In this document: one piece after another, positions 3,314 to 18,018 of the stretch
How positions within the stretch are numbered: the stretch's first letter is position 1
Layout of the letters: every line of letters begins with the position of its first letter
NCBI RefSeq assembly: GCF_030384885.1
Contig: NZ_CP128613.1
Length of the DNA: 64,000 bases
Origin: Escherichia coli
GTDB lineage: Bacteria > Pseudomonadota > Gammaproteobacteria > Enterobacterales > Enterobacteriaceae
Reading direction: 5' to 3' (one strand)
Notes under the pieces: generated by a model
What the model saw: only the letters and a program-made list of their open reading frames with translations
Database searches by the model: none
Told to the model about the DNA's origin: nothing
Translations under genes and position numbers: made by a program

Positions 3314-4591
3314 TTACTTGCTGCTAGCCATTGCGGGGGTGCTATCAGCAGTACGAATTTTTTGGAACAGCAAAAAGGTAAAGACGATCACCATGCCAAG
3401 CGCCGCCATGCCCATCAGCCACATATTGCGGTAGGCTTCTGCAGCGGGCAGGGTGTCTTGCCAGTAGCCGATAATTGGGTAAACGAAGACATCCGGCAGA
3501 AATCCAATCACCGAACAAATACCTACCGTGGTGCCCATAATGTAAGACGGTGTTCTCGCTTCGCCAGGGCAGGCCCAGTACAGCCCGCGTGAGGCGTAAC
3601 AGGTGAATCCCAGAAGTAAAATCAGACCAATCCCCATCGCGACCGATTGCGGGTTAGAGTTCGTGATGAGCAGGGCAGTTAACGCCAGCAGGCCGAGTAC
3701 GGAAAGTATTTGAATCACGCGGGTAGGGGATTTCACTTTGCTGTAGGTGGTGATAATGCCACCAAGTGGGCCGCACAGTGCGCGGAAGATTTTGTTGATC
3801 ACAATCCCCATGTAGCTCGCCGCCACCAGCGACATGCCGTACATTTCGGTCAGATAGTTGGTGGAGTAACTCAGAATGGCGTAGATGGTGAAGACGCCAA
3901 AAATCACCATGCTGCAGTACCATGTGGTGCTGATGCGCAAAACGGCCAGGATGTCGCTAAGCTGGAATGACTGTTTTTCTTCGTTATTGGCATTGCGCAG
4001 GTTGTTGTTATCGCTAACAAAAAACCAGCACAGAATCCCCAATAAAATGTAGACCACACTATAGATGATAATGACCGTTTTCAGGCTGGCGCTGTCATCC
4101 GGTGCAAAGCGAGAAAAGACCCACATGGTAAACACCGCCAGCGACATTACACCGACGCCGCGCAGCCCTTCCATCCAGCCCATAATTTTCCCCTGCTCGC
4201 TATGATCGCCAAGCAACGATGCGGCTTTAATCGACACCGACCACAGCATTAAAATCGTCGTTATCGCAAAGGCGACCTGAATACAGAGCATTACCCACAG
4301 CGGTGGATACGTTGCCATTAACAGACCCAGCAATCCGGTAATGATCATCGCGGAAGTAATCATTTTGCGATGCGAAAATTTATCGGCAATAACGCCGCTG
4401 GGGGCATAAAGAATAATAGCCGCAATACCAAAGGTACTCATTATTAAACCTATCTCGGTATTGCTGAATCCCATAAATTTAGCCATGGGAATTTGATAAA
4501 TATAACGTAAATAAGCCAGATCAAAACTAACGCCGCCACTAAAACTAATTATCGCGAGGGTTATCCAACGGCGATATGAGTTGTGTTGCAT
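3314..4591 (-). CDS. yqcE: MFS transporter (425 aa)
   Basis: Full-length hydrophobic ORF with multiple predicted TM segments. Confidence 0.88.
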   Translation of the reverse strand: MQHNSYRRWITLAIISFSGGVSFDLAYLRYIYQIPMAKFMGFSNTEIGLIMSTFGIAAIILYAPSGVIADKFSHRKMITSAMIITGLLGLLMATYPPLWVMLCIQVAFAITTILMLWSVSIKAASLLGDHSEQGKIMGWMEGLRGVGVMSLAVFTMWVFSRFAPDDSASLKTVIIIYSVVYILLGILCWFFVSDNNNLRNANNEEKQSFQLSDILAVLRISTTWYCSMVIFGVFTIYAILSYSTNYLTEMYGMSLVAASYMGIVINKIFRALCGPLGGIITTYSKVKSPTRVIQILSVLGLLALTALLITNSNPQSVAMGIGLILLLGFTCYASRGLYWACPGEARTPSYIMGTTVGICSVIGFLPDVFVYPIIGYWQDTLPAAEAYRNMWLMGMAALGMVIVFTFLLFQKIRTADSTPAMASSK

Positions 4592-4769
4592 ATCGTATTC
4601 CCATTTGTAATAGACAAAAAAAAGAGAAAAGTAAGCCGCCCTTTCAGGTGGATTACTTTTCTCAGGTCTCTAGTAATTGCAATAAGAAATAACATGGAAA
4701 GCAGGGGTGTTGTGTGAGAGTAGTCACGCTTCTGCTTTTTAAAATTATTTGACAATTCGAATATCACAC

Positions 4770-4785
4770 TGTGATTACGATCACA
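4770..4785. promoter_or_regulatory. Perfect CRP-type palindrome TGTGAttacgaTCACA in the yqcE/ygcW divergent intergenic region
   Basis: Sequence tgtgattacgatcaca matches the TGTGA-N6-TCACA consensus exactly; an overlapping palindrome atcacactgtgat lies immediately upstream. Confidence 0.55.
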
Positions 4786-4909
4786 TTAGCGCTTATGCCC
4801 TTATGCTAAAAATTATCTCCAGTTACCAGAGATAATGAGAAAGGTAACTTCCCTCTCGCGGGGGAAGTTACCTTTCTTTTTTTTTGCCTTACGGAAATTG
4901 GAGCTAACT

Positions 4910-5695
4910 ATGTCAATCGAATCTCTCAATGCGTTCTCAATGGATTTTTTCTCCCTGAAAGGTAAAACCGCAATTGTTACTGGTGGGAATAGCGGTTTAG
5001 GCCAGGCATTTGCCATGGCACTGGCAAAAGCAGGCGCAAATATCTTTATTCCTAGTTTCGTTAAAGATAATGGCGAAACAAAGGAAATGATTGAAAAACA
5101 GGGGGTTGAGGTGGGCTTCATGCAGGTGGATATCACCGCAGAAGGCGCGCCGCAGAAGATAATTGCCGCCTGTTGTGAACGTTTCGGCACCGTCGATATT
5201 CTGGTTAACAATGCCGGTATATGTAAGCTGAATAAGGTGCTGGATTTCGGTCGTGCCGACTGGGACCCGATGATTGACGTGAACCTGACCGCCGCATTCG
5301 AGTTAAGCTACGAAGCGGCAAAAATTATGATCCCGCAGAAAAGCGGTAAAATCATTAATATCTGTTCACTGTTTTCTTACTTAGGTGGTCAATGGTCTCC
5401 TGCTTATTCTGCCACTAAACACGCCCTTGCCGGATTTACCAAAGCCTATTGCGATGAATTAGGTCAATATAATATTCAGGTAAATGGTATTGCCCCAGGA
5501 TATTACGCTACCGATATCACCCTGGCGACACGCAGTAATCCAGAAACCAATCAGCGCGTTCTTGATCATATTCCAGCAAACCGTTGGGGCGATACTCAGG
5601 ATTTAATGGGCGCAGCCATATTTCTCGCAAGTCCGGCATCGAATTATGTCAACGGGCATTTATTAGTGGTTGATGGCGGTTATTTAGTGCGCTAA
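4910..5695 (+). CDS. ygcW: Short-chain dehydrogenase/reductase, KduD-like (261 aa)
   Basis: ATG at 4910 preceded by ggag; TGGNSGLG Rossmann motif; the longer track ORF from 4835 is rejected as an upstream in-frame extension. Confidence 0.88.
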   Translation: MSIESLNAFSMDFFSLKGKTAIVTGGNSGLGQAFAMALAKAGANIFIPSFVKDNGETKEMIEKQGVEVGFMQVDITAEGAPQKIIAACCERFGTVDILVNNAGICKLNKVLDFGRADWDPMIDVNLTAAFELSYEAAKIMIPQKSGKIINICSLFSYLGGQWSPAYSATKHALAGFTKAYCDELGQYNIQVNGIAPGYYATDITLATRSNPETNQRVLDHIPANRWGDTQDLMGAAIFLASPASNYVNGHLLVVDGGYLVR

Positions 5696-10409: not shown

Positions 10410-10985
10410 TCAAAGCAATTTTTTCGCTAACGTCCAGACCCCGGTATTCGTGGTAGAAAGCGCCACTACACCGGCGTTAATCGCATTACGCGCATCTTCT
10501 TCATCGCACACCAGCCCGCCAGCAATCAGCGGCTGGTGGATTTTCTCCGTTACCCAGCCCAGCACTTTAGGCATACAGCCTGGCAGAATTTCAATACAAT
10601 CAGGATTCGATTGCGCAACCTGCTTATCAATGTTGTGAAAAGAAATCGAGTCGACAATAAACAAGCGATGAATACAGAAAAAGCCTTCCGCTCTCGCCGC
10701 TTTTAGCATTGACGCTTTGGTACTGATAATGCCGTCCGCCTCGGTCACCAGTTTCAGAAACTGAATTACTACTTCTTTATTTGACGCGCCTTCCAGCAAA
10801 TCGACATGAATAAAAGCATATTTTCCGGCGTTCTTAATCTTTTTGACGATATGACTGATGGTGCAAATATTGCCGTATAACACGGAAATAAACTGGCATT
10901 CAGAATCGATTGCCAACTGCAGGCTGGCATTATCTTTAACGGCAGCAATCACCGGATTCTGGCGGAGCAGGTGTAAGAGGGGCAT
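10410..10985 (-). CDS. ygcP: GlpP-like glycerol-3-phosphate-responsive antiterminator family protein (191 aa)
   Basis: Full-length ORF; family assignment from memory. Confidence 0.8.
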   Translation of the reverse strand: MPLLHLLRQNPVIAAVKDNASLQLAIDSECQFISVLYGNICTISHIVKKIKNAGKYAFIHVDLLEGASNKEVVIQFLKLVTEADGIISTKASMLKAARAEGFFCIHRLFIVDSISFHNIDKQVAQSNPDCIEILPGCMPKVLGWVTEKIHQPLIAGGLVCDEEDARNAINAGVVALSTTNTGVWTLAKKLL

Positions 10986-15082: not shown

Positions 15083-16794
15083 TGAACGAAAAACATCCAG
15101 GGCCTTTAGTGGTCGAAGGAAAACTGACAGACGCCGAGCGCATGAAGCTTGAGAGCAACTACCTGCGCGGGACCATTGCGGAAGATTTAAACGACGGTCT
15201 GACCGGCGGCTTTAAGGGCGACAACTTCCTGCTGATCCGTTTCCACGGTATGTATCAGCAGGATGACCGCGATATCCGCGCCGAACGTGCTGAACAGAAG
15301 CTGGAACCGCGTCATGCGATGCTGCTGCGCTGCCGTCTGCCGGGTGGGGTGATCACCACTAAACAGTGGCAGGCAATTGATAAATTCGCCGGTGAAAACA
15401 CCATTTATGGCAGCATTCGCCTGACCAACCGCCAGACGTTCCAGTTCCACGGCATTCTGAAAAAGAACGTCAAACCGGTGCACCAGATGCTGCATTCGGT
15501 CGGTCTTGATGCGCTGGCGACCGCCAACGACATGAACCGTAATGTACTCTGCACCTCGAACCCATTTGAATCTCAGTTGCACGCGGAAGCGTATGAGTGG
15601 GCGAAGAAAATCTCTGAACATCTGCTGCCGCGTACCCGCGCCTACGCGGAGATCTGGCTCGATCAGGAGAAAGTCGCCACCACCGATGAAGAACCCATCC
15701 TCGGTCAGACCTACCTGCCGCGTAAATTCAAAACCACGGTAGTGATCCCGCCGCAGAACGATATCGATCTGCACGCCAACGACATGAACTTTGTGGCGAT
15801 CGCGGAAAACGGCAAGCTGGTGGGCTTCAACCTGCTGGTGGGCGGTGGGCTTTCTATCGAACACGGCAACAAGAAAACCTACGCCCGCACGGCGAGCGAG
15901 TTTGGCTATCTGCCACTGGAGCATACGCTGGCGGTGGCGGAAGCGGTCGTTACCACTCAGCGTGACTGGGGTAATCGTACTGACCGTAAAAACGCCAAAA
16001 CCAAATACACGCTGGAGCGCGTGGGTGTTGAGACGTTTAAAGCAGAAGTGGAACGTCGCGCGGGGATCAAATTTGAGCCGATCCGTCCTTATGAATTTAC
16101 CGGACGCGGCGATCGTATCGGCTGGGTAAAAGGGATCGATGACAAATGGCACCTGACGCTGTTTATCGAAAATGGCCGAATTCTTGATTATCCGGGGCGT
16201 CCGCTGAAAACCGGCCTGCTGGAGATCGCGAAGATCCACAAAGGTGATTTCCGCATTACGGCGAACCAGAATCTGATCATCGCCGGTGTACCGGAAAGCG
16301 AGAAAGCGAAGATTGAGAAGATCGCCAAAGAGAGCGGATTGATGAATGCCGTCACGCCGCAGCGCGAAAACTCAATGGCCTGCGTGTCATTCCCGACTTG
16401 CCCGTTGGCGATGGCGGAAGCGGAGCGTTTCCTGCCGTCGTTTATCGATAACATCGATAATTTAATGGCGAAACATGGTGTCAGCGATGAGCACATCGTG
16501 ATGCGTGTAACAGGCTGCCCGAACGGTTGTGGTCGCGCGATGCTGGCGGAAGTGGGCCTGGTGGGTAAAGCGCCGGGTCGCTACAACCTGCATCTTGGCG
16601 GCAACCGCATGGGAACGCGTATCCCACGGATGTATAAAGAAAACATCACCGAGCCGGAAATCCTGGCGACGCTTGATGAACTGATAGGGCGCTGGGCGAA
16701 AGAGCGTGAAGCGGGTGAAGGCTTCGGTGACTTTACGGTGCGTGCGGGCATCATTCGCCCGGTGCTCGATCCGGCGCGTGATTTGTGGGATTAA
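15082..16794 (+). CDS. cysI: Sulfite reductase [NADPH] hemoprotein beta component (570 aa)
   Basis: ATG overlaps the cysJ stop; siroheme/4Fe-4S sulfite reductase family sequence. Confidence 0.95.
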
Positions 16795-17865: not shown

Positions 17866-18018
17866 ATGCTGACAAAATATGCCCTTGTGGCAATCATCGT
17901 ACTGTGTTGTACAGTACTGGGATTCACGCTGATGGTAGGCGACTCGTTGTGTGAGTTGAGTATCAGAGAACGTGGTATGGAGTTTAAGGCAGTTCTCGCT
18001 TACGAATCGAAGAAGTAG
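17866..18018 (+). CDS. Hok/Gef-family type I toxin, HokE-like small membrane peptide (50 aa)
   Basis: ATG 17866 after GGGAGG; peptide [50 protein letters not shown] has one TM helix and the conserved Hok C-terminal pattern; 8-bp stem-loop 18024-18045 follows the stop. Confidence 0.75.

What the first reader, a model, noticed from the sequence alone, without database searches (positions are those of the whole stretch)
4740..4800. Perfect CRP-consensus palindrome with an overlapping second palindrome in the yqcE/ygcW divergent promoter
The sequence atatcacactgtgattacgatcacattag contains TGTGAttacgaTCACA (exact TGTGA-N6-TCACA) at 4770-4785, overlapped on its left by a second palindrome ATCACAcTGTGAT. 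It lies between divergently transcribed transporter (yqcE) and dehydrogenase (ygcW) genes and is preceded by a ttgaca hexamer at 4749-4754. This suggests catabolite control of the cluster, possibly with a second regulator competing on the overlapping site.
Basis: seen in the sequence. Interest (0 to 1): 0.4.

Follow-up and report, generated by a model that had tools for sequence, protein, structure and literature searches.

The report
Known CRP site in ygcW/yqcE promoter
The palindrome is a genuine, already published binding site for the E. coli catabolite regulator CRP, placed to switch on the ygcW operon; the overlapping second palindrome is probably chance, and the less ordinary feature nearby is a pair of conserved leader RNA attenuators.

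Summary
TGTGAttacgaTCACA lies at 4770-4785, ATCACAcTGTGAT at 4763-4775 and TTGACA at 4749-4754, between divergent yqcE and ygcW of E. coli.

The CRP reading is right but already published:
- ChIP-seq peak on this exact sequence (2015).
- EMSA plus crp-deletion RNA-seq for yqcE-ygcE (2021).
- In vitro Kd of about 1.7 nM (2026).
- A prediction from 2007.

Three things were added here.
1. The site lies 29.5 bp upstream of a conserved extended -10 (TGcTAAAAA). This puts it at about -41.5 from the published ygcW-leader start, which is class II geometry.
2. Both sites are kept in 56 of 57 orthologous regions from many genera, and the spacing between them varies from 36 to 173 bp.
3. The left palindrome arm and the TTGACA are not conserved outside E. 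coli, so a competing second regulator is not supported.

Both promoters run into a conserved leader RNA: an antiterminator helix with covariation, overlapping an intrinsic terminator. It matches no Rfam family. It co-occurs with the GlpP-family protein YgcP in Enterobacterales, Vibrionaceae and Firmicutes. I infer CRP-activated initiation followed by YgcP-dependent antitermination; the YgcP step is untested.

The parts
4770..4785 (.). CRP site 1, TGTGATTACGATCACA (centre 4777.5). Proposed class II activator site of the ygcW-operon promoter.
   Evidence: Only exact consensus in the window. Scores 18.7 bits, the best in the window. Published ChIP-seq, Footprint-seq and prediction. In 56 of 57 orthologous regions a strong site lies 131.5-144.5 bp from the ygcW ATG.
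4763..4775 (.). 13-bp palindrome ATCACAcTGTGAT. Its right arm is the left half of CRP site 1. Judged a chance feature.
   Evidence: Present in the window, K-12, ST131, O157, E5 and Escherichia sp. MOD1. The left arm differs in E69, E. albertii, E. whittamii and strain SCPM, and is absent in all other genera. The window holds 25 such palindromes.
4749..4754 (+). TTGACA hexamer. Not a -35 element for the mapped start, and not conserved.
   Evidence: It lies about 65-70 bp upstream of the start at 4817-4821. It reads TTGATA or TTGATT in O157 and other Escherichia, and nothing similar is seen in other genera. A 2014 paper listed it as a predicted -35 on motif grounds only.
4713..4728 (.). CRP site 2, TGTGAGAGTAGTCACG (centre 4720.5). 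Proposed class II site of the yqcE-ygcE promoter.
   Evidence: Scores 12.4 bits, third best in 64 kb. Sites 1 and 2 are the only two above 4 bits in the intergenic region. Conserved in 56 of 57 regions, in most at 128.5-148.5 bp from the yqcE ATG. It lies 42.5 bp upstream of the published start at 4678.
4804..4812 (+). Extended -10 of the ygcW promoter (TGcTAAAAA; hexamer 4807-4812). There is no -35.
   Evidence: TGnTA starts 18-20 nt after the end of site 1 in 56 of 56 regions. The distance from the CRP centre to the first base of the hexamer is 29.5 bp.
4817..4821 (+). Published class I transcription start cluster of the ygcW leader (short RNA ecr2774, 4817-4890).
   Evidence: Romero et al. 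2014 TSS table and Table S5. Coordinates were converted through the gap-free alignment to K-12.
4821..4885 (+). ygcW leader RNA element. P1 pairs 4821-4827 with 4843-4849. The purine-rich loop is 4828-4842. The terminator hairpin is 4837-4878, followed by nine U at 4877-4885.
   Evidence: Terminator scan. Folding gives -34.2 kcal/mol, z = -7.0. Covariation for P1 and for the terminator. Covariance-model score 79.9 bits. No Rfam family.
4686..4694 (-). Extended -10 of the yqcE promoter (TGtTATTTC on the minus strand; hexamer 4691 to 4686).
   Evidence: TGnTA starts 18-19 nt after the end of site 2 in 55 of 56 regions. The distance from the CRP centre to the hexamer is again 29.5 bp.
4677..4678 (-). 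Published class I transcription start of the yqcE leader (short RNA ecr2775, 4678 to 4615).
   Evidence: Romero et al. 2014.
4616..4678 (-). yqcE leader RNA element, a paralogue of the ygcW one. P1 pairs 4677-4672 with 4657-4652. The terminator hairpin runs 4663 to 4624, followed by eight U at 4623-4616.
   Evidence: Folding gives -21.6 kcal/mol, z = -4.7. Covariance-model score 74.9 bits. Alignment and covariation.
10410..10985 (-). ygcP, a GlpP-family protein. Candidate trans-acting antiterminator for both leaders (inferred).
   Evidence: Full-length match to PF04309 G3P_antiterm, E = 2e-62. ORF confirmed. A homologue was found in 54 of the 58 enterobacterial loci tabulated; three of the four without one have little flank on that side. 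In 6 of 6 distant loci a homologue lies beside the RNA element.

Best explanation
The palindrome at 4770-4785 is a high-affinity CRP-cAMP binding site. It is the activator site of a class II, extended -10 promoter that has no -35. The -10 is TGcTAAAAA at 4804-4812 and transcription starts at about 4819 into the ygcW-ygcU-ygcS-ygcR-ygcQ operon.

A second, weaker CRP site at 4713-4728 does the same job, in the same geometry, for the divergent yqcE-ygcE promoter. Its -10 is TGtTATTTC and transcription starts at 4678 on the minus strand. The two promoters stand back to back and are independent of each other.

Both transcripts start with the same conserved leader RNA of about 65 nt. Its default fold is a strong intrinsic terminator, which accounts for the short RNAs ecr2774 and ecr2775 seen in K-12. 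A weak alternative helix, P1, closes a purine-rich loop (AGAGA-N3-5-GAGAAA) and sequesters the 5' half of the terminator.

I infer that the cluster-encoded GlpP-family protein YgcP stabilises P1 and lets RNA polymerase read through. By analogy with GlpK and GlpP, its ligand would be the phosphorylated product of the kinase YgcE. Expression would then need two signals: low glucose, sensed by CRP at initiation, and the specific substrate, sensed through antitermination.

What is shown and what is inferred:
- Shown: CRP binding (published), the positions of the sites relative to published starts, conservation, the terminators, and covariation in P1.
- Inferred: that CRP activates the ygcW promoter, that site 2 is bound, that YgcP acts on the RNA, and the identity of the inducer.

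The overlapping palindrome ATCACAcTGTGAT and the TTGACA have no assigned function.
For: CRP binding:
- ChIP-seq peak listing exactly TGTGATTACGATCACA for ygcW/yqcE.
- Footprint-seq Kd of 1.7 nM.
- yqcE-ygcE listed as Crp-activated, with a positive EMSA.
- PhyloScan prediction.
- Weight-matrix scores of 18.7 and 12.4 bits. These are the only two sites above 4 bits in the intergenic region.

Geometry:
- Published class I starts fall at window 4817-4821 (+) and 4678/4677 (-).
- This gives about -41.5 for site 1 and -42.5 for site 2.
- The distance from each CRP centre to the first base of the conserved TGnTA -10 is 29.5 bp in both promoters.
- That spacing is kept in 56/56 and 55/56 orthologous regions.
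- The ChIP-seq paper itself reports that CRP sites cluster at about -40.5.

Independence of the two promoters:
- Each site keeps its distance to its own gene, while the spacing between sites takes 22 values from 36 to 173 bp.

Leader RNA:
- Terminators with z = -7.0 and -4.7.
- The short RNAs end at the U-runs.
- P1 is 91.5% paired, against 15-54% when the partner strand is slid. GC/AU covariation occurs at two pairs. The alignment column at 5' strand position 35 pairs in 89/94 sequences in P1 but in only 34/94 in the terminator.
- P1 alone folds at only -6.7 and -1.4 kcal/mol, which points to a stabilising factor.

Link to YgcP:
- PF04309, E = 2e-62.
- Co-conserved in the enterobacterial loci.
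- The element occurs only in these two leaders in 1.2 Mb searched.
- It occurs again next to YgcP homologues in Vibrio, Photobacterium, Clostridium, Sporomusa, Thalassobacillus and Fodinisporobacter.
- B. subtilis GlpP targets have the same layout of promoter, GlpP site and 5'UTR terminator.
Against: - No published or computed test shows that transcription of the ygcW operon depends on CRP. Only yqcE-ygcE is listed as Crp-activated.
- Both promoters have some CRP-independent activity. RpoD holoenzyme alone selected this region in genomic SELEX. Sigma-S holoenzyme transcribed the yqcE-upstream region in vitro. According to the paper, the short RNA upstream of yqcE (ecr2775) was probed in cells grown in LB and in M9 glucose and was detected.
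- The ygcW start is a 5-nt cluster, so the site position ranges from -39.5 to -43.5.
- Site 2 has never been resolved from site 1 experimentally. ChIP-seq and Footprint-seq each list one site here.
- P1 covariation rests on perhaps 3-5 independent substitution events, because the sequences are related.
- Nothing shows that YgcP binds RNA. The element could instead bind a metabolite directly.
- The probe printed for ecr2775 in the stored text of Table S9 does not match this region. I could therefore not re-check the northern confirmation.
Confidence: 0.75

Rival explanations
1. The 13-bp palindrome ATCACAcTGTGAT is the operator of a second DNA-binding regulator that competes with CRP for the shared TGTGAT arm.
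For: The palindrome is perfect. It is retained in the E. coli lineages sampled: K-12, ST131, O157:H7, E5 and the window strain.
Against: The left arm is not conserved in E. coli E69, E. albertii, E. whittamii or strain SCPM, nor in any other genus. In those same genomes the CRP site, the -10 and the leader are conserved. Retention within E. coli is expected by descent alone, given about 2% divergence. The window holds 25 palindromes of this type. No DNA-binding regulator was found among the ten cluster proteins.
Confidence: 0.05
2. One shared CRP site. Site 1 alone controls both divergent promoters: class II for ygcW, and a distant upstream site at about -99.5 for yqcE. The 4713-4728 match is not bound.
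For: ChIP-seq and Footprint-seq each list only one site for this region. Site 2 scores only 12.4 bits, about the median of bound sites.
Against: Site 2 is conserved in 56 of 57 regions. It tracks the yqcE -10 at a fixed 18-19 nt, whereas its distance to site 1 varies from 36 to 173 bp. A position of -99.5 is off the usual class I phasing. ChIP-seq cannot resolve two sites 57 bp apart.
Confidence: 0.12
3. The conserved leader element is a metabolite-binding riboswitch, or some other protein-independent attenuator. YgcP has a different role.
For: The loop and stem bases are nearly invariant across phyla. This degree of conservation is also typical of ligand-binding RNAs. No experiment links YgcP to RNA.
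Against: The element is small and simple: a weak 6-7 bp helix with a loop of about 15 nt, folding at -1.4 to -6.7 kcal/mol. It co-occurs with a PF04309 gene in every locus examined that has enough flank. PF04309 is named for B. subtilis GlpP, whose targets have this same layout.
Confidence: 0.15
4. CRP acts here as a repressor or roadblock of a promoter that uses the TTGACA at 4749-4754, as in the published motif prediction TTGACA-16-TGTGAT.
For: A 2014 genomic SELEX paper listed TTGACA-16-TGTGAT as the putative ygcW promoter.
Against: That listing was a motif match, not a mapped start. The published starts are at 4817-4821 and 4678. In this sequence the spacer is 15 nt and the '-10' would be TGTGAT. 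The TTGACA is not conserved.
Confidence: 0.03

Closest known systems
Class II CRP-dependent promoters with an extended -10, such as E. coli galP1 (my own knowledge: Busby and Ebright 1999)
   Same: A CRP dimer is centred near -41.5 and replaces the -35 element. A TGn extended -10 is present. There is some basal activity without CRP.
   Different: Two such promoters stand back to back here, each with its own site. CRP dependence of the ygcW promoter has not been measured.
E. coli bgl operon: a CRP-dependent promoter followed by a leader terminator and the BglG antiterminator, which binds the RAT RNA (my own knowledge)
   Same: The same two-layer logic in the same organism: catabolite control at initiation, then substrate-specific antitermination at a leader terminator that overlaps an alternative hairpin. 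An H-NS signal is also flagged for this region.
   Different: The candidate antiterminator is a PF04309 (GlpP-family) protein, not a BglG/SacY CAT-PRD protein. The RNA motif is unrelated in sequence. No PTS gene was seen in the cluster.
B. subtilis GlpP with the glpD, glpFK and glpT leaders
   Same: The protein family is the same (PF04309). Each target has a promoter, a protein-binding site and an intrinsic terminator in the 5'UTR. An FGGY-family kinase is encoded alongside, GlpK there and YgcE here.
   Different: The operon content differs and the substrate is unknown: SDR, FAD oxidase, ETF and MFS or BCCT transporters. The effector is probably not glycerol-3-phosphate. I could not obtain the B. 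subtilis leader sequences, so sequence or structure similarity of the RNA targets was not tested.
Divergent CRP-controlled sugar operons with one site per promoter, such as mtlA/yibI, which has two listed sites per peak in the same ChIP-seq table
   Same: An intergenic region between divergent catabolic operons carries more than one CRP site.
   Different: Here both sites have identical class II geometry, and both transcripts carry the same attenuator.

Membership tests
CRP-cAMP binding site | Two-fold symmetric site with TGTGA-N6-TCACA core half-sites | tested here: met
   Exact core at 4770-4785. Scores 18.7 bits with a matrix built from 106 ChIP-seq sites, with this site left out.
CRP-cAMP binding site | Occupied by CRP in vivo and bound in vitro | not testable with these tools
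   Published. ChIP-seq peak in ETEC H10407. Footprint-seq Kd of 1.7 nM on K-12 DNA. Positive EMSA on the yqcE-ygcE promoter fragment.
CRP-cAMP binding site | Conserved in orthologous regulatory regions | tested here: met
   A strong site at a fixed distance from ygcW in 56 of 57 regions from many genera. Also present in Vibrio hannami.
Class II CRP-dependent promoter | Site centred at about -41.5 from the transcription start, overlapping the -35 position | tested here: met
   Site 1 lies at -39.5 to -43.5 from the published start cluster 4817-4821. Site 2 lies at -42.5 from 4678. Both centres are 29.5 bp from the conserved -10.
Class II CRP-dependent promoter | Transcription depends on CRP-cAMP | not testable with these tools
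   Published for yqcE-ygcE only. No data for ygcW. Basal CRP-independent activity is indicated.
GlpP-type (PF04309) antitermination system | A PF04309 protein is encoded with the regulated genes | tested here: met
   YgcP is a full-length match, 210 bits, E = 2e-62. Co-conserved in enterobacterial loci and in 6 of 6 distant loci.
GlpP-type (PF04309) antitermination system | An intrinsic terminator lies in the 5' leader between the promoter and the first gene | tested here: met
   Hairpins followed by U8-9. Covariation in the stem. The published short RNAs end there.
GlpP-type (PF04309) antitermination system | An alternative RNA structure or binding site overlaps the terminator | tested here: met
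   Helix P1 shares 6-7 nt with the 5' half of the terminator. It is 91.5% paired, with compensatory changes.
GlpP-type (PF04309) antitermination system | The protein binds the leader RNA and causes read-through when its effector is present | not testable with these tools
   No experiment found. No paper in the library mentions ecr2774, ecr2775 or PF04309, and the ygcP hits, judged from titles and abstracts only, do not concern regulation.
GlpP-type (PF04309) antitermination system | The RNA target resembles the B. subtilis glpD, glpFK and glpT leaders | not tested
   The sequences could not be obtained.
Any Rfam RNA family | Reaches the family's gathering score | tested here: not met
   The best hit was 25 bits against a 100-bit threshold, and nothing relevant was found.
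Operator of a second DNA-binding regulator (the 13-bp palindrome) | The palindrome is conserved where the regulated genes are conserved | tested here: not met
   Found only in E. coli lineages and one close relative.

The most novel reading that the evidence does not exclude
The two leaders define an undescribed, widely distributed cis-regulatory RNA. It consists of a 5'-terminal antiterminator hairpin with a conserved AGAGA...GAGAAA loop, overlapping an intrinsic terminator. The proposal is that this RNA is the target of the orphan GlpP-family antiterminator YgcP. The ygc cluster would then be a second CRP-plus-antitermination catabolic system in E. coli. The same RNA-protein pair has spread, together with an SDR/FGGY-kinase/FAD-oxidase gene set, across Enterobacterales, Vibrionaceae and Firmicutes.
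Probability: 0.55. Interest if true: 0.6.

Novelty: already known. Interest (0 to 1): 0.3.

Why it matters
The CRP site itself adds little. It was predicted in 2007, seen by ChIP-seq in 2015, tied to Crp-dependent yqcE-ygcE expression in 2021, and measured in vitro in 2026.

What is useful is the complete map of the control region:
- two independent class II promoters, each with its own CRP site;
- each promoter is followed by the same conserved attenuator.

This map suggests why the ygc genes may stay silent even when CRP is active, and it explains where the short RNAs ecr2774 and ecr2775 come from. It also gives the uncharacterised protein YgcP a concrete, testable RNA target. That in turn offers a handle for finding the unknown substrate of the ygc pathway: screen for compounds that relieve termination.

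Tried and rejected
- Rfam search of 4400-5100 at E <= 10: nothing relevant.
- My first guess for the yqcE -10 (TCTTAT, 4687-4682) and the scan tool's TTCTCA-18-GATAAT: dropped in favour of the conserved TGtTATTTC, which fits the mapped start.
- A motif search with a fixed 5-nt spacer failed because the spacer is 3-4 nt in this strain. The shorter motif GAGAAARGTAA hit only this intergenic region.
- Leader-peptide attenuation: rejected. The ATG at 4835, in frame with ygcW, is not conserved, and the U-run length varies.
- Extra copies of the RNA element elsewhere in the clusters, for example before ygcN, ygcP or ygcS: none found in 1.2 Mb.
- Supplements of the 2021 and 2026 CRP papers are not held. 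I could not see which site the EMSA authors predicted, or whether Footprint-seq resolved site 2.
- B. subtilis glp leader sequences were available only as images.
- One YgcP homologue (P0092) had no contig on record.
- My first attempt to align other Escherichia species used wrong coordinates for four loci. Those species were judged instead.
- LacI-type operator reading of TGATTA-CG-ATCACA, considered by eye: rejected. It is not symmetric about the CG, and no such regulator was found in the cluster.

Full report
OBSERVATION

The window is E. coli. The stretch tested is 100% identical to strain 2013C-4282 and is present in 5066 of 5426 complete genomes. The finding lies in the 318-bp region between yqcE (3314-4591, minus strand; MFS transporter, followed by the kinase gene ygcE) and ygcW (4910-5695, plus strand; SDR, followed by ygcU, ygcS, ygcR and ygcQ).

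The last is the only exact TGTGA-N6-TCACA in 64 kb, where 0.05 is expected by chance.

I built a weight matrix from 106 CRP sites in a published ChIP-seq table, leaving this site out. The site scores 18.7 bits, the best in the window. A second match, TGTGAGAGTAGTCACG at 4713-4728, scores 12.4 bits, third best in the window and about the median of bound sites. These are the only two positions above 4 bits in the intergenic region.

WHAT IS ALREADY PUBLISHED

- PhyloScan ranked ygcW/yqcE among its top CRP predictions in 2007.
- CRP ChIP-seq in ETEC H10407 lists a peak with exactly TGTGATTACGATCACA for ygcW/yqcE.
- Li et al. 2021 list yqcE-ygcE as Crp-activated from crp-deletion RNA-seq, validated by EMSA.
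- A 2026 Footprint-seq preprint gives an estimated Kd of 1.7 nM. It calls the site novel only in the sense of lying more than 500 bp from any of the 308 sites it counted as already described or predicted.

PROMOTER ARCHITECTURE

The intergenic region aligns to K-12 without gaps, which allows published coordinates to be converted (K-12 U00096.3 coordinate = 2905183 minus window coordinate).

Romero et al. 2014 mapped class I primary starts at window 4817-4821 (+) and 4678/4677 (-). They also reported two short RNAs: ecr2774 (4817 to 4890) and ecr2775 (4678 to 4615).

Site 1 (centre 4777.5) is therefore at about -41.5 from the ygcW-leader start. Site 2 (centre 4720.5) is at -42.5 from the yqcE-leader start.

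To test this I fetched orthologous loci from one genome per species. The yqcE/ygcW divergent pair is present in 57 usable regions, from Escherichia through Klebsiella, Citrobacter, Cedecea and Serratia to Rahnella, Erwinia, Pantoea and Budvicia. The results:
- 56 of the 57 regions have two strong CRP sites.
- Site 1 always lies 131.5-144.5 bp from the ygcW ATG.
- Site 2 lies 128.5-148.5 bp from the yqcE ATG in most regions. The exceptions have insertions downstream of the leader.
- The distance between the two sites takes 22 different values from 36 to 173 bp.
- Each site is followed, after 18-20 variable bases, by a conserved extended -10. This is TGnTAAAAA or a variant for ygcW in 56/56 regions, and TGnTATTTC or a variant for yqcE in 55/56.
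- In both promoters the CRP centre is 29.5 bp from the first base of the hexamer. That is what a site at -41.5 and a hexamer at -12 require.

These are two independent class II promoters, each lacking a -35, standing back to back.

THE SECOND PALINDROME AND THE TTGACA

- The left arm ATCACA is kept in the E. coli lineages sampled (K-12, ST131, O157:H7, E5) and in one close relative.
- It reads AGCACA in E. coli E69. It is unrecognisable in E. albertii, E. whittamii, a cryptic-clade strain and every other genus, whereas the CRP site, the -10 and the leader are conserved there.
- Perfect 6-N1-6 palindromes occur 25 times in this window.
- The TTGACA lies about 65-70 bp upstream of the mapped start. 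It reads TTGATA in O157:H7 and in other Escherichia.
- A Pfam scan of the ten cluster proteins found no DNA-binding regulator.

I therefore treat both features as chance features of the E. coli lineage. The evidence does not exclude a lineage-specific role, but nothing supports one.

WHAT LIES DOWNSTREAM OF BOTH PROMOTERS

Each transcript begins with the same element of about 65 nt (window 4821-4885 on the plus strand, 4678-4616 on the minus strand). Its consensus is:

5' AGUUACY - AGAGA N3-5 GAGAAA - RGUAAC - variable GC-rich hairpin top - UUGCUUUUCUC - U7-9

- The default fold is an intrinsic terminator: -34.2 kcal/mol (z = -7.0) and -21.6 kcal/mol (z = -4.7). The published short RNAs end at its U-run.
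- On an alignment of 94 distinct copies, the terminator is 91.6% paired, and 7 pairs change on both sides.
- A second helix, P1, pairs the 5' AGUUACY with RGUAACU, which is the middle of the terminator's 5' half.
  - It is 91.5% paired, against 15-54% when the partner strand is slid, and no shuffle reaches it.
  - Covariation is GC:61 / AU:28 at one pair, UA:64 / CG:22 at another, and a single A-U to G-C change at a third.
  - The base at alignment column 35 pairs in 89 of 94 sequences in P1 but in only 34 of 94 in the terminator. P1 is therefore constrained in its own right.
- P1 alone is weak, at -6.7 and -1.4 kcal/mol. This is what one expects of an antiterminator that needs a factor to stabilise it.
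- The element matches no Rfam family. No conserved leader peptide is present.

THE CANDIDATE FACTOR

ygcP (window 10410-10985, minus strand) is a full-length PF04309 protein, the family named for the glycerol-3-phosphate responsive antiterminator (E = 2e-62).

- A ygcP homologue was found in 54 of the 58 enterobacterial loci tabulated. Three of the four without one have little flank on that side. It is present even where the ETF genes are missing and ygcP has moved next to ygcE.
- A covariance model of the element finds exactly the two leaders per locus and nothing else in 1.2 Mb.
- YgcP has homologues of 54-62% identity in Vibrionaceae and Firmicutes. I fetched six such loci: Vibrio hannami, Photobacterium gaetbulicola, Clostridium sediminicola, Sporomusa, Thalassobacillus and Fodinisporobacter.
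  - All six carry SDR, FGGY-kinase and FAD-oxidase genes beside the PF04309 gene.
  - All six carry one or two copies of the RNA element, at 37-65 bits.
  - Each copy lies just upstream of the SDR gene, or of a transporter or oxidase gene.
- In the two Firmicute leaders read, the element follows an ordinary TTGACA-17/18-TATACT promoter with no CRP site. In Vibrio a CRP-like site again lies about 41 bp upstream.
- The catabolite input is therefore lineage-specific, while the RNA-protein pair travels with the genes.
- B. subtilis GlpP targets are described as a promoter, a GlpP site and a terminator in the 5'UTR, which is the same layout.

By analogy with GlpK and GlpP, I infer that YgcP binds the P1-loop structure when the product of the kinase YgcE is present, and so prevents termination. 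No experiment addresses this.

CAVEATS

- CRP dependence of the ygcW promoter has not been measured.
- Both promoters show CRP-independent activity in vitro, and according to the paper the short RNA upstream of yqcE was detected by northern blot of cells grown in LB and M9 glucose.
- Site 2 has not been resolved experimentally from site 1.
- The covariation rests on a handful of independent events.
- The ecr2775 probe printed in the stored supplement does not match this region, so I report the northern confirmation as stated by the authors only.

VERDICT

The CRP interpretation is correct and already known. The idea of a competing second regulator is not supported. The finding as given is ordinary. 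The surrounding twin attenuators and their likely link to YgcP are the part worth following up.

Noticed in passing
window 4713-4728: A second CRP-type site (TGTGAGAGTAGTCACG, 12.4 bits) lies 57 bp from the reported one. It is conserved in 56 of 57 orthologous regions and sits at -42.5 from the published yqcE-leader start.
   Followed up: yes
window 4821-4885 (+) and 4616-4678 (-): Twin paralogous leader RNA elements: antiterminator helix P1, a purine-rich loop and an intrinsic terminator. They match no Rfam family and correspond to the published short RNAs ecr2774 and ecr2775. They are conserved in Enterobacterales, Vibrionaceae and Firmicutes next to YgcP homologues.
   Followed up: yes
window 10410-10985 (-): ygcP encodes a full-length PF04309 (GlpP-family) protein with no described target. 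It is more conserved across genera (67-99% identity) than the neighbouring ETF genes ygcR, ygcQ, ygcO and ygcN.
   Followed up: partly
L066 9830-9850 (minus strand as read): In Clostridium sediminicola the promoter in front of the leader element contains ATGAAAACGATTATA in its spacer. By eye this is one mismatch from the CcpA cre consensus. It would be a Firmicute counterpart of the CRP input.
   Followed up: no
L065-L070: Outside Enterobacterales the conserved gene set (SDR, FGGY kinase, FAD oxidase, ETF, PF04309) is usually paired with a BCCT-family transporter rather than only the MFS transporters of E. coli. This is a hint about the unknown substrate.
   Followed up: no
window 4835-4837: An ATG in frame with ygcW gives a 286-aa ORF (4835-5695) that would run through the terminator hairpin. 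The ATG is not conserved in other genera, so the annotated start at 4910, with GGAG 6-7 nt upstream, stands.
   Followed up: partly
window 16497-16512: CGTGATGCGTGTAACA scores 12.1 bits with the CRP matrix. It is the cysI-internal/cysH-upstream site listed in the ETEC ChIP-seq table, and it was part of the matrix training set.
   Followed up: no
window about 276-1219 and 18214 onward: The reference annotation of the identical strain shows a CRISPR array between queE and ygcE. Further on it shows a Hok/Gef gene (about 17866-18018) followed by a frameshifted cas3. Window coordinates were derived from L001.
   Followed up: no
PMC4681348 supplement, Table S9: The oligonucleotide listed as the ecr2775 northern probe (CTCAAGGGGAGAAAACTTAGGGCCTCTATG) has no match within 3 mismatches anywhere in the window. 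The stored table may be mis-parsed or mislabelled.
   Followed up: partly
L035 9892-9973: In Limnobaculum eriocheiris the yqcE-ygcW region is only 130 bp. It has no CRP site at or above the 9-bit listing threshold and a single leader element that scores on both strands. This is the one exception among the 57 regions.
   Followed up: no
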